Counted from the stretch's first letter, positions 1-21,760 are shown. The stretch: 24,000 bases of DNA from an uncultured Enorma sp. (GCA_964624825.1 CAZUYD010000018.1:3593-27592); one strand, 5' to 3'. Notes: generated by a model not told the origin, from the letters alone. Numbers and translations: made by a program.

Positions 1-210
1 ATCGCTTTTGACCTTGAGGAATTCCTCCTGGTTCTTTACCACTTTGACAGCGCCGTGCTGGCCGCGGTGGCCAGCCATGATCTGGCCTTTGAGGACGCAG
101 GGGAACCCTATGCCCTCGGGCAGCTCATCGTTCTCCACGAGGGGCGTGGGGTTCACCGGAATCCCGAAGCTCTCAAGCCTGCGCTTGCCCTCTATCTCAA
201 GATAGTCCAT
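1..210 (-). CDS. SucC-like ATP-grasp acyl-CoA ligase (ADP-forming), N-terminal 70 codons only; the gene continues beyond the left edge
   Basis: Reverse-strand translation from the ATG at 210-208 gives MDYLEIEGKRRLESFGIPVNPTPLVENDELPEGIGFPCVLKGQIMAGHRGQHGAVKVVKNQEEFLKVKSD. This follows the succinyl-CoA synthetase beta N-terminal pattern (LxExxxKxxLxxxGIPV ... VLK.Q..AG.RG..G.VK). An AAGGGG RBS lies upstream. It is co-directional with the aldehyde dehydrogenase. It is absent from the ORF track because it is truncated. Confidence 0.55.
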   Translation of the reverse strand, partial: MDYLEIEGKRRLESFGIPVNPTPLVENDELPEGIGFPCVLKGQIMAGHRGQHGAVKVVKNQEEFLKVKSD

Positions 211-223
211 TCATATCCCCTTT

Positions 224-290
224 CATGCGGGGTGGGAAAACGACCCCGCATGCAGTTAACCTGGCCGCCGTGCCTTCCGTGCCCGGCGGC
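224..290 (-). other. Two intercistronic GC-rich stem-loops between the aldehyde dehydrogenase and the ligase gene
   Basis: A perfect 10-bp stem joins CATGCGGGGT (224-233) to ACCCCGCATG (243-252) with a 9-nt loop. A 7-bp stem joins GCCGCCG (264-270) to CGGCGGC (284-290). Neither is followed by a U-tract. Confidence 0.35.
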
Positions 291-303
291 GCCGAAATGC
301 CGT

Positions 304-1677
304 TTACCAGACCTTGGCCGGGTCGGGCATGTAGGACGCTTCCAGCGGGTAGCCCACGCGCGTGATGTTCAAGAGGTGCGTGTAGCTGAAGTTGCCGCTG
401 AAGCTGTTATTGCCCCACGAGCCGCAGCCGAGGGTCGTGGTAGGGCCGAACCAGTTGGTGGGGCTACCCCCTCCCGTGGTGCCGGCAGGTTGGTTCACCA
501 CGCAGCGGGACACGGAGCACTGGACGGCGGCATACTCTACGTGCTCGGGGGTGTTGGAGTGCACGCAGATGCTGTGACCCTTGCCCTCGAACTCGAGATT
601 CTCGACCATGTAGGAGACGCCCTGCTCCCAGTCCTCGTAGGTGTAGACGGCGCAGACCGGGCAGAGCTTCTCACGGCAGAGCTGCTCGTCGGCACCGACG
701 GCCTCGGCTTTCACGAAGATGACGCGGGTGTCATCGGGGACCTCGACGCCGAGCTTCTTGCCGACCTCAGGGGCGGAGAGGCCGACCACGTCGCGCGATA
801 GCGGACCGTTGCCCGGGAAGAGTCCCTCGCGAATCTTGGCGACGATTTCAGGGTCATCGATGCAGAGGGCGCCGTGCTTGCCAGCTTCTTCGATGAACTT
901 GTCGTATTTGGCGGCCGGGACGAAAACGGTTTGTTCGCCCAGGCAGATTAGGCCGTTGTCGAAGCTTCGTCCGACGATGACCTTTTCCACGGCATCGGAC
1001 ATCTCTGCGTCCTCGTCGATGATGCACTGGACGTTGCCTTGGCCCACCCCGAGGGACGGCTTGCCGGAGGAGTAGGCGGCCTTGACCATGGCCGGGCCAC
1101 CCGTGGCGACGATGATGTCGGCTGCTGCCATGAGCGCGGCGGAATCTTCGAGCGAGACATGCTCCAGACCAAGGACAAGGTCGCGCGGGAGGCCGAGTTT
1201 CTCGAGCTCGGCCTGGAAAAGCTCAACGCACGTCTTGGTGATTTCGATGCAGCGTGGATGTGGTGAAAAGATTACGGAGTTGCGCGTCTTGAGCGCGTAG
1301 GCAGCGTTGCACATGGGCGTGACGACGGGGTTGGTGGAGGGGATGATAGCCGCCACGACGCCCATGGGCTTAGCTACCTCGTACATATGGTGCTCATCAT
1401 CGCGGGAGATCACCCCGACGCTCTTCTTGTCCTTGATGTACTGCCAGATGAGGGCGGCCTTGTTGCGACACTTGGCGATCTTGTCGGCCTCGTTGCCCAT
1501 ACGGGACTCCACGGCGGCCTGCGGGCCGAGCTCCTCGGCGTTGTCGTAGACGACTTTCAAGATGGCGCGCGCGGCAGCGTCGGCCTGCTCTTGGGTCATG
1601 AACTCAATCTGCTTCTGGGCGGCGCGGGAGCGCTCGACGAGCTCTTCGACAGACGGATAGCTCTGCTTTTCGGGCAT
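304..1677 (-). CDS. CoA-acylating aldehyde dehydrogenase, AdhE-N-terminal / SucD (succinate-semialdehyde dehydrogenase, acylating) type
   Basis: Lies within ORF 304..1752. I place the start at the ATG at 1677 (MPEKQSYPS...), which is preceded by GAAGGAGAAAACC. Family motifs are present: PSTNPVVTPMCNA, ATGGPAMVKAAYSSGKP, FDNGLICLGEQ (catalytic Cys) and PTTTLGCGSWGNNS. From memory it resembles Clostridium kluyveri SucD along its length. Confidence 0.9.
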   Translation of the reverse strand: MPEKQSYPSVEELVERSRAAQKQIEFMTQEQADAAARAILKVVYDNAEELGPQAAVESRMGNEADKIAKCRNKAALIWQYIKDKKSVGVISRDDEHHMYEVAKPMGVVAAIIPSTNPVVTPMCNAAYALKTRNSVIFSPHPRCIEITKTCVELFQAELEKLGLPRDLVLGLEHVSLEDSAALMAAADIIVATGGPAMVKAAYSSGKPSLGVGQGNVQCIIDEDAEMSDAVEKVIVGRSFDNGLICLGEQTVFVPAAKYDKFIEEAGKHGALCIDDPEIVAKIREGLFPGNGPLSRDVVGLSAPEVGKKLGVEVPDDTRVIFVKAEAVGADEQLCREKLCPVCAVYTYEDWEQGVSYMVENLEFEGKGHSICVHSNTPEHVEYAAVQCSVSRCVVNQPAGTTGGGSPTNWFGPTTTLGCGSWGNNSFSGNFSYTHLLNITRVGYPLEASYMPDPAKVW

Positions 1678-1721
1678 GGTTTTCTCCTTCGGCTTTGCGT
1701 TGGTCGACGGTTCGGATGCGC

Positions 1722-1746
1722 GCTTCATGAGAGCCGTGCGAAAGCG
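1722..1746 (-). other. Stem-loop between the transporter and the aldehyde dehydrogenase
   Basis: AGCCGTGCG-aaagcga-CGCACGGCT forms a perfect 9-bp stem. No U-tract follows on the minus strand. Confidence 0.3.
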
Positions 1747-1857
1747 ACGCACGGCTGCAGCAGTACCGATTGGGATCGCGCAGAGGACAATTCAGTAACG
1801 GTGCGCCCTCTCGGTACCCGATTCGGTTGTTAGTGACGTTATCCAGGCGCGGTGTGC

Positions 1858-3270
1858 CTACAGCACCGAGAAGGTGGGCCAGAAGTTCATGAGAAACACG
1901 CCCAGGACTATGATGATCACGATGCGGACGATCATCATGGGCAGGCCGTACTTGAGCATATGGCCGGCTTCCAGGCCGTAGCCCGCGGGCACCGCGCGAA
2001 TGGAGACGGGCAGCAGGAACTCCGCATCGAATGCCATGACGGTGATGCACCAGTACGGGATGGGGTTCAGCCCGAGTTGGGTCGTCAGCGCGATGACAAG
2101 GGGCACCGTGACCGCAGAGGACACCGTGGAGCTCGTGAGCTCGGAGATGAGGCAGGCAAGTAGCACGAAGACGATGATGGTGGTGATGCCGCCGTCGAGC
2201 GAGAAGCCCTGAAGGATGGTGGCGATGACGGAGGTGGCGCCGGAGCCGTTGATGAGCGTACCGATGGCCAGGCCGCCGGCAAAGAGGTACATCATGCCCC
2301 ACATGACGCCCTTCTGGGCCTCATCCCAGCCCATGAGGGGTTTCTTCCCGTAGGTGAAGATGAATGACAGCATGCCCATGGCCACGAAGATGTAGGCCGG
2401 GACCAGGTTGGGAAGGATGTCGGCGAACAGCGGACGGCAAAGGGCGCCGAGGAACGCCAAGCCGAAGAAGATGCCAACCATGGCCTCGTTGGTCTTGATC
2501 TTGCCCATAGCCTTGTAGCCCTCGCGGAAGAACTCCTTAGACCCCTTGAGCGGATCGACCTTGTGGAACATGAGCATCATGAGAGCGAAGAACACGAGCA
2601 TCGTCACGATGGTATAGGGCAGGAAGCGAATGATCCAGTCGAGGTACATGACCTCGATGCCGAGCTGTTCCTGCAGAAGCGAGATGGCCGTGACATTCAT
2701 GGCGCCGCCGAGCGGGGTCACGATGCCGCCGAGGACGGTGCCCCAGCAGATGGCGAGGAAGATGGGCGGGCCGGAGGGGCAGTCGCGTAGGCTCTCGTAG
2801 CCAGCGGCCCGGAACATTGCCAAAGCGAGCGGGCAGAAGAGGGAGACGACCGCGATGTTGGGGAGCACCGCCGAGAACAGCAGGCTCGCGACGAACCAGA
2901 CGATGAGCTGGGACGTGAGGGAGGGGCCGACAACCGCGAGAATCTTGTAGGCGACGCGGCGGTCGAAGCCGGTTGCCTTCCACGGTACTGTCAACAGGCA
3001 GGAGCCGAAGACCAAAACGATGCTCTCAGAGAAGTACTGAGAAATGACGTTTTCCATCGGAACGATGGAAAATAGCGCGTTGACCGGGATGGGAAGCAGT
3101 GCCGTGACCGTCAAATCGACGGGACGGGAAACCCACCAGAACACCATCCAGAGCAGCGTGCCCAATGCTTGGGATCCGGGGCCTCCGAACACGTTGGACA
3201 GGCCTAGCGCACATGCAGCGAACAACGCAGGACCGATGATGAGATAGATGATTCGCTTGGTGAAGTCCAT
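1858..3270 (-). CDS. DASS/SLC13-type (divalent anion:Na+ symporter family) permease
   Basis: Lies within ORF 1858..3438. I place the start at the ATG at 3270 (MDFTKRIIYLIIGPALF...), preceded by AAGGAG. The product is 470 aa and polytopic hydrophobic, with two hairpin-like segments (SAVLPNIAVVSLFCP and SELTSSTVSSAVTVP) where DASS proteins carry SNT motifs. Confidence 0.8.
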   Translation of the reverse strand: MDFTKRIIYLIIGPALFAACALGLSNVFGGPGSQALGTLLWMVFWWVSRPVDLTVTALLPIPVNALFSIVPMENVISQYFSESIVLVFGSCLLTVPWKATGFDRRVAYKILAVVGPSLTSQLIVWFVASLLFSAVLPNIAVVSLFCPLALAMFRAAGYESLRDCPSGPPIFLAICWGTVLGGIVTPLGGAMNVTAISLLQEQLGIEVMYLDWIIRFLPYTIVTMLVFFALMMLMFHKVDPLKGSKEFFREGYKAMGKIKTNEAMVGIFFGLAFLGALCRPLFADILPNLVPAYIFVAMGMLSFIFTYGKKPLMGWDEAQKGVMWGMMYLFAGGLAIGTLINGSGATSVIATILQGFSLDGGITTIIVFVLLACLISELTSSTVSSAVTVPLVIALTTQLGLNPIPYWCITVMAFDAEFLLPVSIRAVPAGYGLEAGHMLKYGLPMMIVRIVIIIVLGVFLMNFWPTFSVL

Positions 3271-3705
3271 GCCGCTATCGCTCCTTTCGACGAGATACCG
3301 ATGAACATACCTTTCCATGCGCGCTCGGGCGCCATTCGCGCGCACGGTATCGCAGCCGGGACGTGCCCGGTTCCGATTGAAAGACAGGCAAGGACCATGG
3401 GCTGTCGCGTATCCGTCGTGCTTTCGGGCACTCGACATGTTGCCGGACGGTCCGAGCCGTAAACTGCTGCGTCAAAGGGTAATTGTCAAGACGGCAGCCA
3501 TGCTGGTCATAGAGTCAATATGGGTAAAAGTTCCCAAAGATACGCCATCTGGCTACCTCGGTGGCGCTTCGGTCCTCCTTCTCTCCAAAGATGGCCATTT
3601 CGGCCACTGTCGCGTTCGTAAGCGACTACGTAAGATGTGCTTGAATGTAGAGACGGGTCCGGGAATCGTCCCGGTGTTTACGCTTCGAGAGGAAAAGAGG
3701 CAGGT
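3271..3705. promoter_or_regulatory. Divergent control region between the transporter operon and the activase-GRE-ADH operon
   Basis: 435 bp with no credible coding sequence and locally lower GC. It contains imperfect direct repeats, CCAAAGATACGCCATCTGGC (3534-3553) and CCAAAGATGGCCATTTCGGC (3585-3604). A small hairpin, CCGGGAatcgTCCCGG, lies at about 3658-3673. The individual promoters could not be resolved. Confidence 0.5.
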
Positions 3706-4656
3706 GTGGCAGAGAGTGGAATCGTTTTCAACGTCCAACGCTACACGATTCACGATGGCCCTGGCTTGCGAACCGAGTTCTTTCTGAAGGGCTGTCCACT
3801 CCGCTGCCGCTGGTGTTCGAACCCTGAGAGCTGGGATCCCAAGATCCAGTATGGCGTCTACCGCACCAAGTGCATCGGGCTCGACAAATGCGGCGCCTGC
3901 ATGGATGTCTGCGCGTGTCCCGAGGGGCTCTTCTTCAAGAAGGGTCGGCTCGACCGCATCGATTACCGTCTCGTTCCTGACTGCAAGCCCCTCTATGACG
4001 AGTGCCCTTCCGACTGCCTCAAACAGTGGGGTCGCGAGATGACGGTCGAGGAGTGCATGAGGACGGTTATCGCCGACAAGGGCTACTACGAGCGTTCCGG
4101 CGGCGGCGTTACCGTTTCCGGCGGCGAGCCCCTCCTGCAGAGCAAGTTCGTTGCCGAGCTCTTCCGAGCTTGCCGCGATGAAGACGTCCAGACCTGCTGC
4201 GAGACCACCTTCCACGTGGGATGGGCCGCCGTCGAGCGCATCATGCCCCTGACAGACATCTTCATCACCGACCTCAAGACCATGGACACCGAGGTACACC
4301 AGGAGTATACCGGTGCCGGCAACGAGGTGATCCTGGACCATATCAAGCGCGTCGTGGACGCGGGCGCGGACGTCATAGTGCGCATTCCGGTCATTCCCGG
4401 CGTCAACGATGGCGAGGAAAACATCTCGGCTACGGCCGACTTCATTCTGGACGAGCTGGGAAATCGTATCCAGATGCTCCAGCTCCTGAGCTTCATGCGC
4501 TTGGGCGTGGAAAAATACCAGTCGCTTGGCATGCCCTACGGCATGAGCGGCGTCAGGGTCAATCGCAAGGCGTTCCAGAAGCACGTGGAAGAGATCGCGG
4601 ACTATTTCGCTGGCCGCGGCATTCGCTGTCGCGTCGGTAACAACGACGAGAAATAA
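3706..4656 (+). CDS. Glycyl radical enzyme activating enzyme (radical SAM, with a ferredoxin-like Cys-rich insert)
   Basis: The radical SAM motif CPLRCRWC follows GIVFNVQRYTIHDGPGLRTEFFLKG. An additional cluster region, CIGLDKCGACMDVCACPEG, is present. The start is probably the GTG at 3706 (VAESGIVF...) after GAGAGGAAAAGAGG; the ORF-track ATG at 3637 would add an unlikely 23-aa leader. Confidence 0.9.
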   Translation: MAESGIVFNVQRYTIHDGPGLRTEFFLKGCPLRCRWCSNPESWDPKIQYGVYRTKCIGLDKCGACMDVCACPEGLFFKKGRLDRIDYRLVPDCKPLYDECPSDCLKQWGREMTVEECMRTVIADKGYYERSGGGVTVSGGEPLLQSKFVAELFRACRDEDVQTCCETTFHVGWAAVERIMPLTDIFITDLKTMDTEVHQEYTGAGNEVILDHIKRVVDAGADVIVRIPVIPGVNDGEENISATADFILDELGNRIQMLQLLSFMRLGVEKYQSLGMPYGMSGVRVNRKAFQKHVEEIADYFAGRGIRCRVGNNDEK

Positions 4657-4702
4657 GGCACCTATGGCGGAGAGGTCCGCCGGAAGATAAAGGAGGGTTT
4701 GT

Positions 4703-7219
4703 ATGCCAACTGTTGACATGGCGAAGCGGAAGCACACAGACGCGTGCGGAACCGAGCCGTACGACAAGACCTATAGCCTCGGCTACCAAGTCCACCACGA
4801 GGATTGGTCTCCGTTCCCTCGCGTCAACCGTCTGCGCCAGACGTTTCTCGACCGAGAATACTACATCGATGTCGAGCGCCTGCGCCTCGTGACCGAGGCC
4901 TATCAGCAGTACGAGGAAGCGCCGCGCAAACTCCAGTGCGCCCACGCGTTCGACAGCGTCCTGCGCAACTGCAGCCTGTTCGTCTACGATGACGACCTCA
5001 TTCTCGGCGAGATCGCCGCGCCCGCCAAGGCCTCTCCGATCTATCCTGAGTTTTCCGTGGACTGGATCATCCGGGAGTCCCAGAAGGAATTGGCGAAGGA
5101 CGTCCCCGTGTTCTGGGAGCGCGAGCACGACCAGTTCTACTACCGCAACGACGAGGAGCGCAAGGAGGCCATCGAGCTCTGTGCCTGGTGGAAGGGCAAG
5201 ACCGTCGAGGACCTGATCAACGCTCGCTTGGACTACGACCAGGTCAAGGGCTCTGAGGTCGGCGAAAAGATATTCCAGACAAATCTGTACCACTATGCGG
5301 GAACCGGTCACCTTGCTATTGACTACGATCGTCTCATGAAGCTCGGTTTCGACGGCCTCATCGACGAGGCCAAGAGAGGCCTTTCCGAACTTGACTACCG
5401 CGATCCAGAGTTTGGCGACAAGCGCGATGAGTATCAGGCCATGATCATCATGTATGAGGCCACCAAGGCTTATATCGAGCGCTACGCCACGCTGTGCGAG
5501 AGCACGGCTGTCGAGCAGACCGACGAGAAGCGTCGCGAGGAACTCCTCGCGATGTCTGCCAACTGCCGCGCCGTCGCCGGTCCTGCGCCCAAGAGTTTCT
5601 GGCAGGCACTCCAGCTCTTCCAGATCGCCACGGCGCTCATTCAGGTCGAGAGCAATGGCCACTCCATCTCCTACGGTCGTATGGACCAGTGGCTCTACCC
5701 GTTCTACAAGGCGGATATCGAAAACGGTTCCATCACCAAGGAATTCGCCCTCGAGCTGCTCGAGGTCGAGTACGTCAAGATGAATAACCCGACCAAGCTC
5801 AAAGACTTCGGATCCATGGCCGTTCGTAACGGCCGTGGGTTCGGCGGCGAATCCCTTACCATCGGCGGCATTGGCCGCGACGGCAAGGATGCCACCAACG
5901 ATCTCACCTTCCTCATGCTCGAGGCCTCTGCTCATACGCGCATGATGAATCCGTGGGTTGCCGTCCGCATGCACGATGACACTCCCTACGAGCTCGCCGT
6001 CAAGGTCGTCGAGTGCATCCGCGCAGGCTACGGGCACCCCAAGATTTTCAACGACGCCCCAGCAATCAAGGGCATGCTCCGCAAGGGCATGACCATCGAG
6101 GAGGCGCGCGACTACTGCGTCGTGGGCTGCGTCGAGATCGATCTGCCCGGCAAGGAGTACGGCTGGCATGACGCCGCCTACATCAATACCCCCAAGATGA
6201 TGGAGATGGTCCTGAACGGCGGCAAGAGCCTCAAGACCGGTGAGCAGCTCGGCCCCGATACGGGCAGCCTCGAGACCTACAAGTCCTTTGACGAGGTCCT
6301 CGCCTCCGTTGACGAACAGTTCGAGTATTGGACCAACCAGATCTGCAGCAGCCTGAACATCATTGATGCCGCGCATCACGATCGCAAGCCTCTTCCCTAT
6401 GTTTCCGGCTTCTACCGGGAGTGCATGGAATCCGGCCACGATCTGGTAGAAGGTGGTGCCAAGTATAACGGCATCGGCCCCCAGGCCGCTGGCATGGGAA
6501 CTTGCGCTGACTCTCTTTGCACCATCAAGCAGCTCATGTTCGACGAGGAGAGGGTCACGGGTGCCGAGCTCCTCCAGTGCGTCAAGGACAACTGGAAAGG
6601 TCACGAGAAACTCTACGCACTCGTGAACAGCTCCAAAGTCCACCACTACGGCAATGATGACAACTACGCCGATGAGCTCTTCAAATGGATGTTCGAGTGC
6701 TACTGCCGCCATATCGCCGGCCGTCCCACGCGCCGCGGCGGTCAGTTCAACCCGGGCGTGTACTCGGTTAACGCCAACGTGGCCATGGGCATGAACACCT
6801 TCGCCACGCTTGACGGACGCAAGGCGGGCGAAGCCATCTCCGACAACATGGCACCGGTTCACACCGATGCCGGATCGCACGATACCGAGGGTCCGACCGC
6901 GCTCGTGAACTCCCTCTCAAAGGTCGACCACAGCCTGGCCTCCAACGGCACGCTTATGAACATGCGCTTCCCGGAAGACGCAGTCGCGGGCACCCAAGGT
7001 CGCGACAACCTCGTGAGCTTCATCGAGGAGTATGTCCGCAAGCAGCCCATGCACGTCCAGTTCAATATCATGAGCGCCGCCAAAATGCGCGCCGCCCAGA
7101 AGCACCCCGAGGACTACAAGGACATGCTCGTCCGCGTGGCAGGCTACTCCGCGTACTTCGTCGAGCTGGGCAAGCCCTTGCAGAAGGATCTCATCCAGCG
7201 CACTGAGCTGCACTTCTAA
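4703..7219 (+). CDS. Glycyl radical enzyme, PFL2 / 1,2-eliminase (dehydratase or lyase) type, substrate unassigned
   Basis: 838 aa, with RBS AAAGGAGGG upstream. The glycyl radical motif is MLVRVAGYSAYFVEL (Gly813). The thiyl loop is VVGCVEIDLPGKEYGWHDAAY (Cys476, Glu478). ATLDGRKAGE is also present. The overall layout is typical of the CutC/GDH/IslA/HypD-type enzymes. Confidence 0.95.
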   Translation: MPTVDMAKRKHTDACGTEPYDKTYSLGYQVHHEDWSPFPRVNRLRQTFLDREYYIDVERLRLVTEAYQQYEEAPRKLQCAHAFDSVLRNCSLFVYDDDLILGEIAAPAKASPIYPEFSVDWIIRESQKELAKDVPVFWEREHDQFYYRNDEERKEAIELCAWWKGKTVEDLINARLDYDQVKGSEVGEKIFQTNLYHYAGTGHLAIDYDRLMKLGFDGLIDEAKRGLSELDYRDPEFGDKRDEYQAMIIMYEATKAYIERYATLCESTAVEQTDEKRREELLAMSANCRAVAGPAPKSFWQALQLFQIATALIQVESNGHSISYGRMDQWLYPFYKADIENGSITKEFALELLEVEYVKMNNPTKLKDFGSMAVRNGRGFGGESLTIGGIGRDGKDATNDLTFLMLEASAHTRMMNPWVAVRMHDDTPYELAVKVVECIRAGYGHPKIFNDAPAIKGMLRKGMTIEEARDYCVVGCVEIDLPGKEYGWHDAAYINTPKMMEMVLNGGKSLKTGEQLGPDTGSLETYKSFDEVLASVDEQFEYWTNQICSSLNIIDAAHHDRKPLPYVSGFYRECMESGHDLVEGGAKYNGIGPQAAGMGTCADSLCTIKQLMFDEERVTGAELLQCVKDNWKGHEKLYALVNSSKVHHYGNDDNYADELFKWMFECYCRHIAGRPTRRGGQFNPGVYSVNANVAMGMNTFATLDGRKAGEAISDNMAPVHTDAGSHDTEGPTALVNSLSKVDHSLASNGTLMNMRFPEDAVAGTQGRDNLVSFIEEYVRKQPMHVQFNIMSAAKMRAAQKHPEDYKDMLVRVAGYSAYFVELGKPLQKDLIQRTELHF

Positions 7220-7277
7220 GGTGCGCGGCGAACCGATCGACGTGAAGGACATCACCTGATCGAAGTGCCTGGACCAG

Positions 7278-7304
7278 CCTCGCCCGCCTTCCCGGCGGGC
7301 GAGG
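7278..7304 (+). other. Intercistronic stem-loop between the GRE and the alcohol dehydrogenase
   Basis: CCTCGCCCGCC-ttccc-GGCGGGCGAGG forms a perfect 11-bp stem with no U-tract. It may be an mRNA stabiliser or a partial terminator. Confidence 0.4.
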
Positions 7305-7345
7305 TGCCTTATGACGGGAAATCGTGTCTAGGAATAGGAGCAACT

Positions 7346-8488
7346 ATGAACCCGTACACCTTCAAGATTCCGCAGACCGTCGAGTTCGGTATGGGAAGTC
7401 TGAAGAAGCTTCCGGAGATCCTACGGTCCGAGAGCTCCGATCATGTCTTCTTCATATCCGACCATGGCTTGGAGCGCATCGGCGTAGTCGACAAGGTCGC
7501 TGGCATCATCGAGGCGTCCGGCATCAAGGTCACGCGCTATCTCGAGGTCAAACCCAATCCGACCGTTCAAATTGTCGAGGAGGCGACTCGACTCTACGAG
7601 CAAAGCGGTGCGTCGAGTATCGTCGTCCTGGGCGGCGGCAGTCCGATGGACGTTGCCAAGGCCGTTGGCGTGCTTGCCACGTTCGGCGGAGCGATCACCG
7701 ACTACGAGGGTGCCGGGAAGGTTCCCGGTCGCATCCTGCCCCTGACCGCCATCCCCACTACAGCGGGGACCGGCAGCGAGGCCACGGCCTCGGCGGTCAT
7801 CTCCGATCACGTGCGCAACGTGAAGTTCTCCATCGTGAGCTACAACATCTTGCCGCGTTACGCGCTGCTCGACCCCGAGCTCATCATGACAGCCCCCGCG
7901 AGCGTTGCTGCTTCCTGCGGCATCGACGCGTTTATCCATGCCATGGAGGCCTACGTCTCACGTCAGGCGTCGCCCTTTTCCGATGCCATGGCCGAGAAGG
8001 CTATGGAGCTCATCGGCGCCAATCTGCGCCGTTTCGTGGCCGACCGCGCTAATGCTGACGCTGCTTGCGCCATGATGGCGGGCAGCAACCTCGCCGGCAT
8101 CGCCTTCGCGTGGGCGCGCCTCGGCAACATCCATGCGCTGAGCCATCCCGTGAGCGCCTATTTCGGCGTTGCCCATGGCGTGGCCAACGCGATTCTCATG
8201 CCCCATGTGGTGGCCTACAACGCGCTCGCGGATACCGGTCGCTATGAGAAGATTTACCGCTACCTGCACCAGGGTCCTGTAAAGGATTTCGAGTCCCTGA
8301 TGCTCGTGGACGAGCTCGTCAAGCTCAACGCCGAACTCAAGATCCCTGCGCGTCTCTCCGAGGTGGGCGTAACCGACGAGCATTTCGAAGCCATGGCGGC
8401 AGACGCCATGGGTACGGTGAACGTGCCGGCGAACCCCCGTCAGAGCACCGTCGCCGATCTCATCGACCTCTACAGGGCATCGCTCTAG
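7346..8488 (+). CDS. Iron-containing (group III) alcohol dehydrogenase
   Basis: Lies within ORF 7265..8488. I place the start at the ATG at 7346 (MNPYTFKIPQTVEFGMGS...) after GGAATAGGAG. Family motifs are present: VLGGGSPMDVAKA, PTTAGTGSE, DAFIHAMEAY and the His-rich metal site HALSHPVSAYFGVAHGVANA. Confidence 0.9.
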   Translation: MNPYTFKIPQTVEFGMGSLKKLPEILRSESSDHVFFISDHGLERIGVVDKVAGIIEASGIKVTRYLEVKPNPTVQIVEEATRLYEQSGASSIVVLGGGSPMDVAKAVGVLATFGGAITDYEGAGKVPGRILPLTAIPTTAGTGSEATASAVISDHVRNVKFSIVSYNILPRYALLDPELIMTAPASVAASCGIDAFIHAMEAYVSRQASPFSDAMAEKAMELIGANLRRFVADRANADAACAMMAGSNLAGIAFAWARLGNIHALSHPVSAYFGVAHGVANAILMPHVVAYNALADTGRYEKIYRYLHQGPVKDFESLMLVDELVKLNAELKIPARLSEVGVTDEHFEAMAADAMGTVNVPANPRQSTVADLIDLYRASL

Positions 8489-8505
8489 CGCCATCCTCTC
8501 TTTAA

Positions 8506-8538
8506 GCCGGGGCCGCTGCGGTGCGCAGCGGCCCCGGC
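8506..8538 (+). terminator. Strong GC hairpin ending the GRE operon
   Basis: GCCGGGGCCGCTGCG-gtg-CGCAGCGGCCCCGGC forms a perfect 15-bp stem 18 nt after the ADH stop. It lacks a canonical U-tract. Confidence 0.55.
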
Positions 8539-8666
8539 GCATATCTGGGCTTCCTGCCTGACCCCTCGATGCGCGCATATCGGGCGTCCCGGTGCCCACT
8601 CGAGGACGGAAGGCGTGGTGGTTTTGCAGGTCGGGGTTTTGTGCGTATGCGAGCGGACATTTTCGG

Positions 8667-8672
8667 TACAAT
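8667..8672 (+). promoter_or_regulatory. Candidate -10 box (TACAAT) for the dnaJ-like gene
   Basis: cGGTACAATgc lies 46 nt upstream of the ATG at 8718. The same GTACAATAAG-like box recurs upstream of deoR (21761) and of the phosphatase gene (17682-17687, minus strand). No convincing -35 element is present. Confidence 0.35.
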
Positions 8673-8717
8673 GCAGACCATGACTGTCGCTCAGCGCCCC
8701 AGGAGGTCCCCTGCCCG

Positions 8718-9845
8718 ATGGCAACCATGAACGATAAAGACTACTACGCGATTCTCGGTGTATCCAAGGATGCATCGCAGAAGGAAATCCAGAAGGCGTT
8801 TCAGCAGAAGGCGCGTAAGCTGCATCCCGATGTGAACAAGGCACCCGATGCCGAAGAGCGTTTCAAAGAGGTTTCCGAGGCGTATGCGGTGCTCTCTGAT
8901 GAGCAGAAGCGCGCACGATACGATGCGATGCGCTCGGGCAACTCGTTTGCAAGCTATGGTGGCTCGGCGGCGCAGCATCCGTATGGCGCGGGAGCCGCGC
9001 GCGGATCCTATTATGGCGGCTTCGGAGGTTTCGGCGGGTTCCCCTTCGGCGGTGCGTGGGGCGAGAGCCGCAGGCCAGGGCGTCAGAGCTCGCAGGCGTT
9101 CAACCCGGAAGAGGGCGCCGATGTGGTGGTTGACATCGACCTTACGCCCGAGCAGGTAAAAAACGGCGCCCGCAAAGCCGTGAAGTACCGCCGATATGAA
9201 ACCTGCCAGCATTGCCATGGCGTGGGCTCCGTTTCTTCTGAGCATGCCCACGCGTGCCCGAGCTGCGGAGGCACCGGTGCTATGGGCGTGGATATGTCAT
9301 TTCTCTTCGGCGGCGGCATGTTTCAGATGGTTTGCCCGGAATGCAACGGCTCGGGCAAGGTCATCAACGACCCCTGTCCAGATTGCGGAGGTTCCGGTCG
9401 GCGTCAGGTGATGTCCGAGGCGGTCATCGAATTTCCCGCGGGCGTGCACGATGGAAGCACGGTGCGCGTGAGCGGTCTGGGCAATGCGGGCACCAACGGC
9501 GCGGCGGCGGGAGACCTCGTCGGTCGCGCGCGGGTTGCCGCGGAACGCCTTGAGGGGCAGGCACAAAAAGGGTTCCGTGCTATGGGATTGTCCGCGCCGT
9601 TTCTGCTGCTGGCGCTGCTTGGCGGTTCTGTTAGCGTTATCGCGCTTGTTGGCCTGGCGTTCTTTATATGGGGACTCGTGAATGTGCTGCGCGAGGTTCC
9701 CGGCCATCGATCGTTCATCTGGTTCAAGCGCGGTCTCGCGGTCTTCGCGCACGGGATGGCGAATACGCTGCTCTGGGTGCTTCTTCTCCTATGGTTTGCG
9801 AGCTGCTCGCGCGGGCTTTACTACCGTCCGATGGTCTGGTATTAG
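8718..9845 (+). CDS. DnaJ-like co-chaperone with a C-terminal transmembrane anchor
   Basis: Lies within ORF 8592..9845. I place the start at the ATG at 8718 after AGGAGG. It has a J domain (DYYAILGV...[11 protein letters not shown] present), a G/F-rich linker and four CxxCxGxG zinc-finger repeats ([32 protein letters not shown]). Where CTD-II and the dimerisation region would lie, there are two hydrophobic stretches ([31 protein letters not shown] and [22 protein letters not shown]). Confidence 0.8.
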
Positions 9846-9967
9846 GCCGCTGCCCTGCGCTGCATATACCCATGTGTGTCGCCGCGTGGGTTGGTTGTTT
9901 ATGTGGGTCAGCTCTGGGGTAGTATGGATGCTGCATGTTTTTCCGCTGCATAGTTCGGTGCGCCTGA

Positions 9968-11140
9968 ATGGCGCTGAAGAGGGGGAAGGTTCGTATCGTG
10001 CCGGGATCGAAGGATTATTACGAGATTTTGGGCGTTGACCGCGATGCCGATCAGCGCACCATCAAACGCGCGTTTCTCAAGAAAGCGCGCGAGGTGCATC
10101 CAGATGTCTCCGACGATCCAAACGCCGAAGAGAAGTTCAAAGAGGTCAACGAGGCGTATTCCGTGCTTTCGGACGAAGAGAAGCGCGCAAACTATGACCG
10201 CTACGGTACAGCCGATGGCCTCGGCGGAAACGGGTATGTCGATTTCAGCGACATCTTTAGCGGCATGGGCATGGACGATATCTTCTCGTCGTTCTTCGGC
10301 GGTGGCCGCTCCGGTTCCGGTTCGAATCGGAGCACGCGTCGCCGTGGCCGCGATATGGCCATCTCGATCACCATCACTCTTGAAGAGGCGGCGCTCGGCT
10401 GCACGAAGACCATTAGCTACGACCGCCTTGCCCCGTGCGAGGATTGCCGCGGCACCGGCATGGCCGATGGCGCACAGGAGACGACCTGTCCCCGCTGCCA
10501 TGGTACGGGGTATGTCACCACGGTGCAGCGCTCGCTCTTCGGGCAGGTCCAATCCTCTTCACCGTGCCCGGACTGCAACGGCGATGGCACGGTCATCGAT
10601 AAGCCGTGCGATATGTGCGATGGACAGGGACGCACGCCGACGCACGAGAAGCTCGACCTTCAGATTCCCGCCGGCATCGTATCGGGAAGGCGGCTGCGCG
10701 TGCGCGGCTATGGCGAGGCGGGCTATCGCGGCGAGGCTCCGGGCGATCTGCTTGCAAGCGTTGCTGTTGCCGAGCACGAACGGTTCCAGCGTTCGGGCGA
10801 TGACCTATTGTGCGCCATATCCATTTCGATTGCCCAGGCGGCGCTCGGGTGCACGGTTGCGGTTGCGGGCATCATGCCCGATGAGACCATCACGTTTACG
10901 GTTCCTGCCGGTGTTCAGTTCGGCGATACCGTCGAGGTCGAGGGCATGGGCATGCCTCGTTCCGGCATGGATGGCCGAGGGCGAGCCATCGCGCAGGTGC
11001 GCATCGAGGTTCCGCGCAAGCTCAGTGGAGAGGCGCGCAGCCTGCTCGAAAAGTATGCCGAGGTCATGGACGAGGACGTTGCAACGCGGCGCACCGTCGG
11101 CGAACGCATTCGCGACGCGATCGATGACATCCTCGATTAG
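9968..11140 (+). CDS. dnaJ: Molecular chaperone DnaJ (type I, full length)
   Basis: It has a J domain (KDYYEILGV...EVHPDV), a G/F region, four zinc-finger repeats (CEDCRGTG, CPRCHGTG, CPDCNGDG, CDMCDGQG) and both C-terminal domains. The GTG at 9998 after GGGGGAAGG is an alternative and perhaps better start. Confidence 0.9.
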   Translation: MALKRGKVRIVPGSKDYYEILGVDRDADQRTIKRAFLKKAREVHPDVSDDPNAEEKFKEVNEAYSVLSDEEKRANYDRYGTADGLGGNGYVDFSDIFSGMGMDDIFSSFFGGGRSGSGSNRSTRRRGRDMAISITITLEEAALGCTKTISYDRLAPCEDCRGTGMADGAQETTCPRCHGTGYVTTVQRSLFGQVQSSSPCPDCNGDGTVIDKPCDMCDGQGRTPTHEKLDLQIPAGIVSGRRLRVRGYGEAGYRGEAPGDLLASVAVAEHERFQRSGDDLLCAISISIAQAALGCTVAVAGIMPDETITFTVPAGVQFGDTVEVEGMGMPRSGMDGRGRAIAQVRIEVPRKLSGEARSLLEKYAEVMDEDVATRRTVGERIRDAIDDILD

Positions 11141-17781: not shown

Positions 17782-19638
17782 TTATGCGAGGGTGCTTAAT
17801 ACCCAGTCGACGTCGGTGGTCGTCTTGAGCTTCTCGACGACCTGTTCATTTTCGAGGATCTTGCAGATGTTCGCCAAAACCTCGAGATGCTCCTCGCCCT
17901 TGCCGGCAATACCGAAGACCAGATAGGCGTTTTCTCCATCGAAATCCACGCCGTCGGGATACTGCTGGAACACCACGCCCGTTTCCTTGACAAATTCCTT
18001 AGCAGTTCCCGTGCCATGCGGAATGGCAACGCCCATACCCAGATAGACGCTGGTGAGCTTGTCGCGCTCAACCATGGCATCCACATACGACTCATCGACG
18101 CACCCAAGCTTCACAAGCAAGCTTCCCGATGCGCGGATCGCATCGACGCGCGGCAACGTTGCACAGCCGAGCTGGATTCCGTCACACGTCAAGGCAATCG
18201 CTGGCGTTTCGGGCTTCGCGGGTTCAGCGGCCGGTGCGGGCGCAGGCTCGATAAGTTCAGCGGCTTTGGACATCTGCGTCAGCGCGTCATAGAGGTTGTC
18301 GAGCGCGGGGTCATCGAGGAAGTTATCGATGGGCACGATCTGTGCGTTCGGCGCGCTCTTGCGGGCACGCTCGGAAAGCACGCGCTGGCAAACCACGATA
18401 TCGGCTTCCGCAGGGACGGTATCGACACTCGAGTGCTTAACGCTCAGGTCGGGGCGATCGGCCTTGATGCGGTTACGGAAGCGCGTGGCGCCCATCGCCG
18501 ACGAGCCCATGCCGGCATCGCAGGCAAAGATAACCAGCCCGTTGGCGGTATCGGAGATGACGGCGGCCTCGGCGGCACCTTTCATTTCGCGCATCTGCTC
18601 GGTCGCCTGGTCAAGGCCTTGCGCGTCCGCGCTTCGCACGATCGGAGTCGCGACCGCGAAGGACACGCCCGCGGCGATCGCCACGCCGACAAGGTTGCTG
18701 AACAGGCACTCGGGCGGCGTCATGCTAATGAACGCGATGATGGAGCCCGGCGAGACGGGGGCGACCATGCCAGAGCCCATCAGGCTGAACCACGCGATGG
18801 CGCATAGGTTGCCCAAAATGGGCGCCACGATGATTTTGGGATTCATGAGCACGTAGGGGAAATAGATCTCGTGGATGCCACCGAAGAAGTGGATGATGAC
18901 CGCGCCGGGCGCAGACTGACGGGTCTTCTTGTCGCGGCAGAACAAGCAGTAGGCGAGCAGCACGCCTAAACCGGGACCCGGGTTCGCCTCGAGCATGTAC
19001 ATAATAGAGCGACCGGTCTCCTGCACCTGAGTAAGCCCAATGGGCGTGAAGATGCCGTGGTTGAGGGCGTTGTTCAAAAACAACACCTTTGCGGGCTCGA
19101 TAAAGATGGCAAGCAGGGGCAGCAGACTGTAATTGATGAGTACGCGTACGCCGGCCGTCAGCACGGCCAAGATGGCACCCATAACCGGACCGATGACCAC
19201 ATAGCCAAACATGGCAAGCAGCATGCCGATGATGCCGAGCGAGAAGTTCTCGACAAGCATCTCAAAGCCGGAGGGGGTGCGGCCATCCATGAGCTTGTCG
19301 AAGGTTTTGATGACAAGCCCGGCAAAGGGACCCATCACCATAGCGCCCATCAGCATGGGGTAATCGGGCGCACCGATGATACATCCCACAACGGCGATGG
19401 GGCCGATGATGCGACCGCGATCGCCACCGACCAGGTAACCGCCCTGAGCCGCGATAAGGATCGGAATGAGATAGTCAAGCATGGGGGTGGTCATCTCGGC
19501 GAACGATTCTACTGGGAACCAGCCGCTTGCCGAGAAGATGGCGGTAAGAAAGCCCCAAGCGATGAAGACCCCGATATTGGGCATGACCATGCCGCTCAAG
19601 AACTTGCCAAACTTAGACACGCGCTCCTTGATGGACAT
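17782..19638 (-). CDS. mtlA: PTS mannitol-family transporter, fused EIICBA
   Basis: 618 aa, with RBS GGGAGGG upstream. It appears near-colinear with E. coli MtlA as I remember it (FGKFLSGMVMPNIGVFIAWG, FIEPAKVLFLNNALNHGIF, EANPGPGLGVLLAY, IHFFGGIHEIYFPYVLMNP). The EIIB motif is ACDAGMGSSAMG. The C-terminal EIIA contains GMGVAIPHGT. Confidence 0.9.
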   Translation of the reverse strand: MSIKERVSKFGKFLSGMVMPNIGVFIAWGFLTAIFSASGWFPVESFAEMTTPMLDYLIPILIAAQGGYLVGGDRGRIIGPIAVVGCIIGAPDYPMLMGAMVMGPFAGLVIKTFDKLMDGRTPSGFEMLVENFSLGIIGMLLAMFGYVVIGPVMGAILAVLTAGVRVLINYSLLPLLAIFIEPAKVLFLNNALNHGIFTPIGLTQVQETGRSIMYMLEANPGPGLGVLLAYCLFCRDKKTRQSAPGAVIIHFFGGIHEIYFPYVLMNPKIIVAPILGNLCAIAWFSLMGSGMVAPVSPGSIIAFISMTPPECLFSNLVGVAIAAGVSFAVATPIVRSADAQGLDQATEQMREMKGAAEAAVISDTANGLVIFACDAGMGSSAMGATRFRNRIKADRPDLSVKHSSVDTVPAEADIVVCQRVLSERARKSAPNAQIVPIDNFLDDPALDNLYDALTQMSKAAELIEPAPAPAAEPAKPETPAIALTCDGIQLGCATLPRVDAIRASGSLLVKLGCVDESYVDAMVERDKLTSVYLGMGVAIPHGTGTAKEFVKETGVVFQQYPDGVDFDGENAYLVFGIAGKGEEHLEVLANICKILENEQVVEKLKTTTDVDWVLSTLA

Positions 19639-19694
19639 TAGTTCCCTCCCTTCGGATAGACCGAACGCAGTCAGTCTACCGTACGAATAGATGC

Positions 19695-19708
19695 GTTTTC
19701 GTTTCGAT
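19695..19708. promoter_or_regulatory. Candidate operator, copy 1 of the 14-nt repeat GTTTTCGTTTCGAT
   Basis: It is a perfect copy of the 19867-19880 sequence. It lies 57 nt upstream of the mtlA start and 7 nt downstream (minus direction) of a TATAGT-like box (complement of 19716-19721). Confidence 0.45.
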
Positions 19709-19831
19709 GGGCTGAACTATAAAGACTTACGAACTGTAAATAGCAGATAGGTTAGTGATTGCCGATAAACGGTCGATATTTAACGGTAAACGGTAAAAAT
19801 CAGCTTGTTTTCGAGAAGTAGAACTTCCGAA

Positions 19832-19859
19832 TTGACAGAATCAAGGGCAGGTATATCCT
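19832..19859 (+). promoter_or_regulatory. Candidate sigma-70-type promoter for the plus-strand fruK'-dehydrogenase transcript
   Basis: TTGACA (19832-19837), a 16-nt spacer, then TATCCT (19854-19859), within the AT-rich intergenic region. Confidence 0.45.
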
Positions 19860-19866
19860 ATCAATA

Positions 19867-19880
19867 GTTTTCGTTTCGAT
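19867..19880. promoter_or_regulatory. Candidate operator, copy 2 of the 14-nt repeat GTTTTCGTTTCGAT
   Basis: A perfect repeat starting 7 nt downstream of the TATCCT -10 box, so it would overlap the transcription start. Confidence 0.45.
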
Positions 19881-20065
19881 AATAGTAATTGTTGGAACAG
19901 CGGTTCACAGACTTGTTTGCACGCATGAGGTTGTCTCGATTGCTTCTCGCACGCATGGACGCGACACATGTCGCGAAGGCAGACGGAGAGCCCGGGCAAT
20001 CGAGCAACACAGGCCACGCGGCGGGTATGTGATTCGCCCGCGAACGCGGAAGGGAAGGCGCGCAG

Positions 20066-20332: not shown

Positions 20333-20391
20333 CAGCTCAATCCCGTGCGTCAGGTAGTGCAAGTGCGTGCGGGCATCGCGAAAGGAACACC

Positions 20392-21654: not shown

Positions 21655-21711
21655 GGGGCCGCGCGATTTTCGTGTGTGAATGCCCGCGCTCTTTGAAACA
21701 GTGCGGTTAAG

Positions 21712-21757: not shown

Positions 21758-21760
21758 CCG

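What the first reader, a model, noticed from the sequence alone, without database searches (positions are those of the whole stretch)
1..8538. GRE catabolic locus combining an anion symporter, a SucD/AdhE-type acylating aldehyde dehydrogenase, a SucC-like ligase and an Fe-ADH; it matches no characterised GRE pathway I know
Two divergent operons share a 435-bp control region.
- Plus strand: activase, then an 838-aa GRE with the eliminase-type GCVE thiyl loop, then an iron ADH.
- Minus strand: a DASS-family anion symporter, then a CoA-acylating aldehyde dehydrogenase of the AdhE-N/SucD family (not the EutE/PduP type), then a succinyl-CoA-synthetase-beta-like ATP-grasp ligase.
- Pathway read as a whole: an anionic substrate is imported and undergoes radical 1,2-elimination to an aldehyde. 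The aldehyde is then either reduced by the ADH or oxidised to an acyl-CoA that yields ATP through a succinyl-CoA-type ligase.
- Comparison with known eliminase loci: CutC and propanediol dehydratase sit with microcompartment shell genes. Glycerol dehydratase sits with dhaT only. HypD sits with a P5C reductase. IslA/HpsG sit with sulfite handling and other transporters. HpfG sits with a reductase.
- The SucC-like ligase and DASS permease argue for a product resembling succinate semialdehyde. Candidates are 3-sulfopropionaldehyde from dihydroxypropanesulfonate (3-sulfopropionyl-CoA is a succinyl-CoA isostere), or succinate semialdehyde from 3,4-dihydroxybutyrate. Isethionate or a neutral diol cannot be excluded.
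Basis: partly seen in the sequence, partly recalled or inferred. Interest (0 to 1): 0.8.

Follow-up and report, generated by a model that had tools for sequence, protein, structure and literature searches.

The report
Known DHPS sulfonate fermentation gene cluster
This is a Collinsella copy of the published HpfGHD-HpfXYZ gene cluster, which lets gut anaerobes split the plant-derived sulfonate DHPS into a reduced and an oxidised product while making ATP, so it is real but not new.

Summary

- **GRE and activase:** the GRE scores 1586 bits on NCBIfam's HpfG equivalog (DHPS dehydratase, cutoff 1000). The activase passes the HpfH equivalog.
- **Match to Enterococcus gilvus:** every enzyme is 57-75% identical to its counterpart in the biochemically characterised E. 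gilvus locus. [quoted passage not shown]
- **Ligase signatures:** both published HpfYZ signature residues are conserved.
- **Same cluster already listed:** the cluster is fully syntenic, at 77-92% identity, in Collinsella sp. An2, which that paper already lists.
- **Transporter:** the DASS transporter is also a recurrent part of hpf loci.

Three details are undescribed, and they are minor:
- the likely DHPS-transport role of this DASS clade;
- a 449-aa permease that takes the place of the TauE-type exporter in Collinsella;
- a conserved tandem operator-like motif.

Interest is low.

The parts
1..210 (-). hpfY, 5' end only (first 70 codons). [quoted passage not shown] The rest of hpfY, then hpfZ and a 449-aa permease gene, lie left of the window and were read from L001.
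   Evidence: Pfam ATP-grasp_2 and NCBIfam sucCoAbeta match the N-terminus. The full 378-aa protein in L001 is 69% identical to characterised E. gilvus HpfY and keeps the GIN signature.
304..1677 (-). hpfX, encoding the NAD+- and CoA-dependent (acylating) 3-sulfopropionaldehyde dehydrogenase, 457 aa. The ORF continues to 1752, and a gene caller chose 1728 as the start.
   Evidence: It is 66-68% identical over 95% of its length to E. gilvus HpfX (P0172). It is 86% identical to the Collinsella sp. An2 orthologue. Its best NCBIfam hits are the AdhE N-terminal half and SauS acylating types. The FDNGLICLGEQ catalytic-Cys motif is present.
1858..3270 (-). DASS/SLC13-family permease, 470 aa, first gene of the minus-strand operon. 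It is probably the DHPS transporter (inferred).
   Evidence: It matches Pfam Na_sulph_symp and CitMHS and TIGR00785 dass. Its nearest solved structure is VcINDY. It is 52% identical to the DASS gene directly upstream of hpfX in E. gilvus and 49% identical to the DASS gene of an hpfGHD-only enterobacterial locus. In 7 of 8 sampled contexts, homologues sit in C3-sulfonate loci.
3271..3705 (.). 435-bp divergent intergenic control region between the DASS gene and hpfH.
   Evidence: Gene starts were fixed by homologue lengths and by the An2 orthologues. There is no Rfam hit, no sigma-70 consensus match and no terminator.
3534..3556 (+). Copy 1 of a 23-nt motif, CCAAAGATACGCCATCTGGCTAC. Candidate operator.
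   Evidence: Two copies lie 51 bp apart and occur only in this intergenic region. Both copies are conserved at the equivalent place in Collinsella sp. An2, while the surrounding sequence has diverged.
3585..3607 (+). Copy 2 of the 23-nt motif, CCAAAGATGGCCATTTCGGCCAC.
3706..4656 (+). hpfH, encoding the radical-SAM activating enzyme for HpfG, 316 aa, GTG start.
   Evidence: It scores 510 bits on the NCBIfam HpfH equivalog NF048008 (cutoff 500). It has the CPLRCRWC cluster motif. It is 57% identical to E. gilvus HpfH and 84% to An2.
4703..7219 (+). hpfG, encoding the glycyl radical (2S)-DHPS dehydratase, 838 aa. Key residues are Cys476, Glu478 and Gly814.
   Evidence: It scores 1586.5 bits on the NCBIfam HpfG equivalog NF048009 (cutoff 1000) and aligns to model positions 1-824 of 824. 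The HpsG, CutC and HypD models all score far below their cutoffs. It is 75-76% identical to HpfG of the E. gilvus and Citrobacter-type loci and 91% to An2.
7346..8488 (+). hpfD, encoding the NADH-dependent 3-sulfopropionaldehyde reductase (Fe-ADH family), 380 aa.
   Evidence: It matches Pfam Fe-ADH and ADH_Fe_C. It is 65% identical to the kinetically characterised E. gilvus HpfD and 77% to An2.

Best explanation
The locus is the HpfGHD-HpfXYZ system for fermentative disproportionation of (2S)-2,3-dihydroxypropanesulfonate (DHPS), carried by a Collinsella (Coriobacteriia) genome.

Proposed steps:
1. DHPS produced by neighbouring sulfoquinovose degraders is taken up, probably by the DASS permease. 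This step is inferred.
2. HpfH uses SAM to place a radical on Gly814 of HpfG. This follows from family knowledge.
3. HpfG dehydrates DHPS to 3-sulfopropionaldehyde through the Cys476 thiyl radical and Glu478. According to papers I could read (PMC11489063, PMC12890257), the activity was shown for orthologues in a primary paper I could not access.
4. The aldehyde is then split between two branches.
   - HpfD reduces it with NADH to 3-hydroxypropanesulfonate.
   - HpfX oxidises it with NAD+ and CoA to 3-sulfopropionyl-CoA. HpfYZ then converts that to 3-sulfopropionate while phosphorylating ADP.
   - All three of these activities were shown for the E. gilvus orthologues.
5. The two products are exported, probably by the 449-aa permease downstream of hpfZ and/or by the DASS protein. 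This step is inferred.

The net reaction is 2 DHPS -> 3-HPS + 3-SP + 1 ATP, which is redox-neutral.

Transcription from the shared 435-bp region is probably controlled by the LuxR-type regulator that accompanies hpf loci elsewhere. This is inferred.
For: - **Equivalog scores:** the GRE passes the HpfG equivalog at 1586 bits against a cutoff of 1000. The activase passes the HpfH equivalog at 510 bits against 500. All other GRE models fail.
- **Identity to the characterised locus:** against E. gilvus ATCC BAA-350 (L006), identities are HpfG 75%, HpfH 57%, HpfD 65%, HpfX 66%, HpfY 69% and HpfZ 71%. That locus's enzymes were assayed in PMC11489063.
- **Published HpfYZ signatures:**
  - GIN is present in HpfY in place of the GIV of succinyl-CoA synthetase.
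  - His is present in HpfZ in place of Tyr, in SGTLTHE.
  - The phospho-His MGHAGAI motif is also present.
  - A planctomycete SucCD-like pair used as a control has GIT and Tyr.
- **Conservation within HpfG:** the window protein keeps 402 of the 432 columns that are invariant among six non-Collinsella HpfG orthologues.
- **Synteny with An2:** Collinsella sp. An2 has the whole cluster in the same order at 77-92% identity. The paper names it as carrying a DHPS-disproportionation cluster.
- **Organism:** the window's HpfG falls in the same 90% cluster as Collinsella sp. An2 and a C. phocaeensis MAG.
- **No upstream pathway:** no sulfoglycolysis genes are found in the window, L001 or L002. This fits a DHPS scavenger.
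Against: - Nothing from this organism has been assayed. The assignment rests on 57-76% identity to characterised or canonical orthologues.
- HpfH clears its equivalog cutoff only narrowly.
- NCBIfam returned no equivalog-level hit for HpfD, HpfX or HpfYZ.
I therefore could not check the published sulfonate-pocket residues one by one.
- The window's HpfG departs at 30 columns that are otherwise invariant. Most of these departures are shared with An2.
- The TauE-type exporter (HpfE) found in the other hpf loci is missing here.
- Co-expression of the two operons has not been shown.
Confidence: 0.9

Rival explanations
1. The GRE dehydrates a carboxylated or neutral diol, for example 3,4-dihydroxybutyrate to succinate semialdehyde, or glycerol or 1,2-propanediol. 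The aldehyde dehydrogenase and ligase would then be a SucD/SucCD pair making succinate and ATP.
For: The ligase subunits score close to, or just above, generic SucC/SucD models. Some sources label HpfX homologues as succinate-semialdehyde dehydrogenase. The closest solved GRE is glycerol dehydratase.
Against: The GRE passes the HpfG equivalog by a wide margin and is 75-76% identical to HpfG of known DHPS loci. HpfY and HpfZ carry the Asn and His signatures that distinguish the 3-sulfopropionate ligase from succinyl-CoA synthetase. The E. gilvus enzyme showed no activity on succinate.
Confidence: 0.03
2. The GRE is a C-S lyase of the HpsG/IslA type. It would release sulfite from DHPS or isethionate, and the flanking genes would process the carbon product.
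For: It belongs to the same GRE eliminase superfamily with a GCVE loop, and an anion permease lies next door.
Against: It scores 494 bits on the HpsG model against a cutoff of 1000. Its phmmer scores to the HpsG and IslA structures are only 356 and 358 bits, against 597 for glycerol dehydratase. There are no sulfite reductase or sulfite-export genes in the window, L001 or L002.
Confidence: 0.01
3. The minus-strand operon (DASS-hpfX-hpfYZ-permease) works independently of the GRE. It would handle imported 3-hydroxypropanesulfonate or 3-sulfopropionate, possibly in the reverse direction, and the adjacency would be incidental.
For: In Chakrabartyella piscis, an HpfX-like gene lies with an Fe-ADH, two DASS genes and a CoA-transferase, with no GRE within 10 kb. 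HpfX and HpfYZ are reversible in vitro.
Against: In Collinsella (window, An2 and the partial contig L017), E. gilvus, Hespellia and L014, the XYZ genes are always beside hpfGHD. The published survey found that clusters with HpfXYZ invariably also contain HpfD. Here the two operons share one control region with a conserved tandem motif.
Confidence: 0.05

Closest known systems
HpfGHD-HpfXYZ bifurcated DHPS pathway of Enterococcus gilvus ATCC BAA-350 (Chen et al., iScience 2024, PMC11489063)
   Same: All six enzymes are orthologous at 57-75% identity. The DASS-hpfX-hpfY-hpfZ gene order is the same. The HpfYZ signature residues are the same. A homologous LuxR-type regulator is present in the Collinsella sp. 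An2 version.
   Different: In E. gilvus the cluster is fused to the sulfo-TAL sulfoquinovose genes. It has two TauE-family genes, an IclR regulator and a second, unrelated DASS gene, and all genes lie on one strand. The Collinsella version stands alone, is arranged as two divergent operons, lacks TauE and IclR, and adds a 449-aa permease.
Collinsella sp. An2 cluster (NZ_NFJW01000008), listed in Table S1 and the Discussion of PMC11489063
   Same: It is gene-for-gene syntenic. Identities are HpfD 77%, HpfG 91%, HpfH 84%, DASS 88%, HpfX 86%, HpfY 86%, HpfZ 92% and the permease 81%. The tandem intergenic motif is the same.
   Different: It is a different species-level genome. The DNA flanking the hpfD side differs: a methyltransferase in An2, DnaJ genes here. 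In An2 a tyrosine recombinase gene lies about 3 kb beyond the regulator.
Canonical HpfGHDE reductive DHPS pathway (Klebsiella oxytoca / Hungatella hathewayi; Liu et al., PNAS 2020, as cited in PMC11489063)
   Same: HpfG, HpfH and HpfD are shared, as is an orthologous DASS permease at 49% identity. The LuxR-type regulator is also found in the Citrobacter-type locus L008.
   Different: The canonical locus has no HpfXYZ, so it only consumes NADH and makes no ATP. It carries the TauE-type exporter.
Sulfoacetaldehyde oxidation modules SqwD-SqwKL and SauS-SauCD (named in PMC11489063 and PMC12890257)
   Same: The logic is the same: a CoA-acylating sulfo-aldehyde dehydrogenase followed by an ADP-forming SucCD-type ligase. 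SauS is the second-best NCBIfam hit for HpfX.
   Different: These modules act on a C2 substrate. The SqwK and SqwL sequences differ at the signature positions. They are not linked to a GRE dehydratase.
B12-independent glycerol dehydratase with 1,3-propanediol dehydrogenase (PDB 1R8W)
   Same: It is the closest solved GRE at 597 bits. The Cys-x-Glu loop aligns, and its His164 and Asp447 align with identical residues in the window's GRE. The diol-dehydratase chemistry followed by an Fe-ADH is the same.
   Different: The substrate is glycerol rather than a sulfonate. There is no acyl-CoA or ATP branch.

Membership tests
HpfG, (2S)-DHPS dehydratase (glycyl radical enzyme) | GRE architecture with the glycyl radical motif RVxG and the eliminase Cys-x-Glu loop | tested here: met
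   It matches PFL-like and Gly_radical. GCVE is at residues 475-478 and RVAGY at 811-815.
HpfG, (2S)-DHPS dehydratase (glycyl radical enzyme) | Scores above the curated equivalog cutoff and below the cutoffs of sister GRE families | tested here: met
   NF048009 gives 1586.5 bits against a cutoff of 1000, over the full model length. HpsG gives 494 against 1000, CutC 498 against 1050 and HypD 553 against 1100.
HpfG, (2S)-DHPS dehydratase (glycyl radical enzyme) | Close orthology to HpfG in loci whose pathway was demonstrated | tested here: met
   It is 75-76% identical to the E. gilvus and Citrobacter-type HpfG. It keeps 402 of 432 columns invariant among six orthologues.
HpfG, (2S)-DHPS dehydratase (glycyl radical enzyme) | Conservation of the sulfonate-binding pocket residues | not tested
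   No experimental HpfG structure exists. The 2020 paper with the homology model was not available. Only general conservation was checked.
HpfG, (2S)-DHPS dehydratase (glycyl radical enzyme) | Converts DHPS to 3-sulfopropionaldehyde without releasing sulfite | not testable with these tools
   This needs anaerobic reconstitution.
HpfH activase | Radical-SAM GRE activase that passes the HpfH equivalog and is encoded next to hpfG | tested here: met
   NF048008 gives 510 bits against a cutoff of 500, which is a narrow margin. The CPLRCRWC motif is present. The gene ends 46 bp upstream of hpfG.
HpfD 3-sulfopropionaldehyde reductase | Fe-ADH family member orthologous to the characterised HpfD and clustered with hpfG | tested here: met
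   It matches Fe-ADH and ADH_Fe_C. It is 65% identical to E. gilvus HpfD. It lies directly downstream of hpfG.
HpfX CoA-acylating 3-sulfopropionaldehyde dehydrogenase | Acylating ALDH of the AdhE-N/SauS type with a catalytic Cys, orthologous to the characterised HpfX | tested here: met
   It is 68% identical over 95% of its length to E. gilvus P0172. The FDNGLICLGEQ motif is present. The NCBIfam ranking supports the acylating type.
[quoted passage not shown] | Two SucCD-type subunits encoded together downstream of hpfX | tested here: met
   L001 encodes a 378-aa beta and a 305-aa alpha subunit. Only 70 codons of the beta subunit lie inside the window.
[quoted passage not shown] | Published signature residues: Asn of GIN in HpfY (E. 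gilvus N312) and His in HpfZ (E. gilvus H160) | tested here: met
   FGGINNC and SGTLTHE are conserved, and the SucCD-like control has GIT and Tyr. These residues lie in L001, outside the window.
[quoted passage not shown] | Specific for 3-sulfopropionate over succinate | not testable with these tools
   This needs an enzyme assay.
Microcompartment-associated GRE loci (cut / pdu-type GRM) | BMC shell protein genes adjacent to the GRE | tested here: not met
   No BMC Pfam is assigned to any called gene of L001. There is no tblastn hit to PduA/EutN sequences (recalled from memory) in the window, L001 or L002.

The most novel reading that the evidence does not exclude
The Collinsella-type hpf locus uses a transport and control set that has not been described. 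This reading has three elements:
- A distinct DASS clade serves as the general DHPS transporter. Its hairpin tips read PNV/PNI and (T/S)(N/S)(S/G)T where, from memory, DASS proteins carry SNT. It would import DHPS in hpf loci and export it in sulfo-TAL loci.
- A 449-aa permease with no clear family replaces the TauE-type HpfE as the 3-HPS/3-SP exporter.
- A LuxR-type regulator acts on a tandem 23-nt operator.

If so, gut Collinsella would be dedicated DHPS scavengers. They would supply 3-sulfopropionate to Bilophila and so feed H2S production.
Probability: 0.4. Interest if true: 0.3.

Novelty: already known. Interest (0 to 1): 0.12.

Why it matters
The pathway matters for gut sulfur cycling. 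It decides whether diet-derived sulfoquinovose/DHPS sulfur ends up as 3-hydroxypropanesulfonate or as 3-sulfopropionate. Bilophila wadsworthia cannot use the first but respires the second to H2S (PMC11489063). That significance is already established.

This window adds only that the complete, intact cluster occurs in further Collinsella genomes (Actinomycetota) as a stand-alone DHPS-scavenging unit. It also gives some comparative leads on the transporters and regulator, which remain uncharacterised.

Tried and rejected
- **RNA and signals:** an Rfam scan of the whole window gave no hits. Sigma-70 and terminator consensus scans of the control region and of the hpfD 3' end found nothing.
- **Motif search:** my first IUPAC pattern for the intergenic motif was mis-specified and found nothing. 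A regex allowing the 1-nt indel found both copies.
- **Primary paper:** the 2020 PNAS HpfG paper could not be retrieved by DOI or PMC id. The published pocket residues were therefore not checked.
- **Leftward extension:** The window's proteins are on record on a 41,294-bp NCBI contig.
- **The 449-aa permease:** it has no PDB relative at E<=10 and only a marginal GntP_permease hit.
- **Microcompartment hypothesis:** rejected.
- **DASS as a 3-sulfopropionate-specific carrier:** rejected, because orthologues occur in loci without hpfXYZ.
- **Limit of the genome scan:** the genome-contig scan with HpfY returned only 4 loci because the pattern method finds close relatives only.

Full report
**Observation**

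On the minus strand:
- The first 70 codons of a SucC-like ATP-grasp subunit lie at 210..1.
- An acylating aldehyde dehydrogenase lies at 304..1677. Its best NCBIfam hits are the AdhE N-terminal half, SauS and EutH_ACDH, and the EutE-like model is much weaker.
- A DASS/SLC13 permease lies at 1858..3270.

On the plus strand:
- A GRE activase lies at 3706..4656.
- An 838-aa GRE lies at 4703..7219, with GCVE (Cys476, Glu478) and RVAGY (Gly814).
- An Fe-ADH lies at 7346..8488.

With gene starts fixed by homologue lengths, the divergent intergenic region is 3271..3705, exactly 435 bp.

A public contig (L001) differs at 3 of 13,211 overlapping bases and reaches 3.3 kb further left. It supplies the complete beta subunit (378 aa), the alpha subunit (305 aa) and a 449-aa permease.

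No microcompartment shell genes are present.

**What it is**

- NCBIfam places the GRE in the equivalog for HpfG, the (2S)-3-sulfopropanediol (DHPS) dehydratase. It scores 1586.5 bits against a cutoff of 1000 over the full model.
- The HpsG, CutC, HypD and other GRE models all fall far below their cutoffs.
- The activase passes the HpfH equivalog at 510 bits against 500.
- A homologue search shows 75-82% identity to many proteins that sources name (2S)-3-sulfopropanediol dehydratase, from Enterococcus, Citrobacter and Clostridia.

**Literature**

- A search for HpfG and sulfopropionyl-CoA led to Chen et al., iScience 2024 (PMC11489063).
- It also shows that cells make both 3-hydroxypropanesulfonate and 3-sulfopropionate from DHPS.
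- The idea had been published in 2022 (PMC9594981). It now appears in reviews (PMC12890257, PMC13335735, PMC12330013).

**Direct comparison with the characterised locus**

I retrieved the E. gilvus ATCC BAA-350 locus (L006) through its HpfX protein.

| Protein | Identity to E. gilvus |
|---|---|
| HpfG | 75% |
| HpfH | 57% |
| HpfD | 65% |
| HpfX | 66% |
| HpfY | 69% |
| HpfZ | 71% |
| DASS permease | 52% |

- The DASS match is to the DASS gene that also sits immediately upstream of hpfX in E. gilvus. The DASS-hpfX-hpfY-hpfZ order is therefore shared.
- The paper's two signature residues are both present in this organism's proteins: the Asn of GIN in HpfY, and the His that replaces the SCS Tyr in HpfZ.
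- The phospho-His motif is also present.
- A planctomycete SucCD-like pair used as a control has GIT and Tyr.
- These signature residues lie in L001, just outside the window.
- The window's HpfG keeps 402 of the 432 columns invariant among six non-Collinsella orthologues. Most of the 30 departures are shared with the Collinsella sp. An2 protein.

**The same neighbourhood is already on record**

- A genome scan with HpfY found Collinsella sp. An2 (L002). It has the same eight genes in the same order and orientation at 77-92% identity.
- An2 is listed in Table S1 and named in the Discussion of the iScience paper as carrying a DHPS-disproportionation cluster.
- The window's HpfG shares a 90% cluster with proteins from An2 and from a Collinsella phocaeensis MAG. 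The window is therefore from a Collinsella genome.

**Mechanism**

1. DHPS is imported.
2. HpfH activates HpfG.
3. HpfG dehydrates DHPS to 3-sulfopropionaldehyde.
4. HpfD reduces part of the aldehyde to 3-HPS, regenerating NAD+.
5. HpfX and HpfYZ oxidise the rest, via 3-sulfopropionyl-CoA, to 3-SP with substrate-level phosphorylation.

- The net reaction is 2 DHPS -> 3-HPS + 3-SP + ATP.
- According to papers I could read (PMC11489063, PMC12890257), HpfG's dehydratase activity was shown for orthologues in the 2020 primary paper, which I could not access.
- The HpfD, HpfX and HpfYZ activities were shown for the E. gilvus orthologues.
- They are inferred here from orthology.
- Transport and regulation are inferred only.
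- No sulfoglycolysis genes occur in the window, L001 or L002. This organism most likely scavenges DHPS released by others.

**Transporters and regulation (beyond the paper, modest)**

- **DASS orthologues.** The window's DASS protein is 48-54% identical to orthologues found in several kinds of locus:
  - hpfGHD-only loci (L008, Citrobacter-type; L015);
  - hpfGHD+XYZ loci (L006, L011 Hespellia, L014);
  - a sulfo-TAL-only locus that should excrete DHPS (L013 Butyrivibrio);
  - a GRE-less HpfX/Fe-ADH/CoA-transferase locus (L012).
- **What that implies.** Only one of the eight sampled contexts was unrelated to sulfonates. The common denominator is DHPS rather than 3-sulfopropionate. The permease therefore does not specifically indicate a succinate-like product.
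- **Exporter.** The TauE-family gene that accompanies hpfG elsewhere is absent from the Collinsella version. I equate it with the paper's HpfE only from the pattern of UniProt accessions, which is weak evidence.
- **The 449-aa permease.** The Collinsella version has it instead. It has only a marginal GntP hit and no PDB relative. I found it only in Collinsella-type loci: L001, L002 and L017.
- **Regulator.** A LuxR/GerE regulator of about 370 aa is conserved with hpf loci from Citrobacter to Collinsella at 45-68% identity. In An2 and L017 it follows the permease gene. In this organism it probably lies just beyond the left end of L001.
- **Operator-like motif.** The 435-bp region holds two copies of a 23-nt motif, at 3534-3556 and 3585-3607. 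Both are conserved in An2 despite divergence around them.
- **A different motif elsewhere.** Firmicute and enterobacterial hpf promoters instead share a TAGGGAAnATTCCCTA palindrome.

**Verdict**

The claim of novelty is not: this is the published HpfGHD-HpfXYZ DHPS disproportionation cluster, in a Collinsella relative of a strain already listed in that publication. Interest is low. The remaining open points are transporter roles, the regulator and its operator, and biochemical confirmation in Collinsella.

Noticed in passing
window 3534-3556 and 3585-3607; L002 6649-6671 and 6710-6732 (minus strand): Two copies of a 23-nt motif (CCAAAnAT..GGsyA-N4-GGsyAC) lie upstream of hpfH. They occur only in the hpf intergenic region and are conserved between the window and Collinsella sp. 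An2. This is a candidate operator.
   Followed up: partly
L006 about 550-590; L008 about 6845-6870 and 2690-2725; L011 about 4230-4260: The hpf promoter regions of E. gilvus, the Citrobacter-type locus and Hespellia share a palindrome, TAGGGAA(n)ATTCCCTA, followed by AAATAGTA. The Collinsella-type region lacks it. It is probably the site for the LuxR-type regulator in those lineages.
   Followed up: partly
L002 13542-14678 (-); L017 1633-2760 (-); L008 5734-6837; L011 2992-4098; L014 7658-8785; L015 1920-3041: A LuxR/GerE-family regulator of about 370 aa accompanies hpfGH loci across phyla, at 45-68% identity. An IclR regulator accompanies the hpfXYZ module in Firmicutes but is absent from the Collinsella version.
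   Followed up: partly
L001 38-1387 (-), just left of the window; L002 12083-13489; L017 206-1531: A 449-aa polytopic permease follows hpfZ. It has only a marginal GntP_permease N-terminal hit and no PDB relative. I found it only in Collinsella-type hpf loci, where the TauE-type exporter is missing.
   Followed up: partly
window 1858-3270 (residues about 137-139 and 380-383 of the 470-aa protein): The hpf/sulfo-TAL-associated DASS clade has PNV/PNI and (T/S)(N/S)(S/G)T at two positions. From memory of the VcINDY sequence, and without aligning it, I take these to be the hairpin tips where DASS proteins carry SNT motifs.
   Followed up: partly
L012 8449-17241 (Chakrabartyella piscis CP092441): This locus has an acetyl-CoA hydrolase/transferase-family gene, a DASS gene, an HpfX-like ALDH (69% identical), an Fe-ADH, an IclR gene and a second DASS gene, but no GRE within 10 kb. 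It may be a GRE-independent route acting on 3-HPS/3-SP or a related C3/C4 compound.
   Followed up: no
L013 6420-16483 (Butyrivibrio-type contig from a JGI metagenome): A sulfo-TAL sulfoquinovose cluster (GH31, MFS, transaldolase, SLA reductase, DUF4867, isomerase, ROK) contains a DASS orthologue 50% identical to the window's. This suggests the clade also exports DHPS.
   Followed up: partly
window 8489-11140 versus L002 1-1814 and 14870-17621: The hpf cluster sits in different chromosomal contexts in the two Collinsella genomes. DnaJ genes follow hpfD here, and a methyltransferase follows it in An2. In An2 a tyrosine recombinase gene lies near the regulator side. This is consistent with horizontal movement of the cluster.
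   Followed up: partly
window 8718-9845 and 9968-11140: Two DnaJ-family genes lie in tandem. The first has a glycine-rich linker, a zinc-finger region and a C-terminal stretch that looks like several transmembrane helices. That is unusual for DnaJ.
   Followed up: no
window 17782-22590: A PTS EIICBA gene (minus strand), a Zn-dependent alcohol/polyol dehydrogenase and a DeoR regulator lie together. This looks like a sugar-alcohol utilisation unit unrelated to the finding.
   Followed up: no
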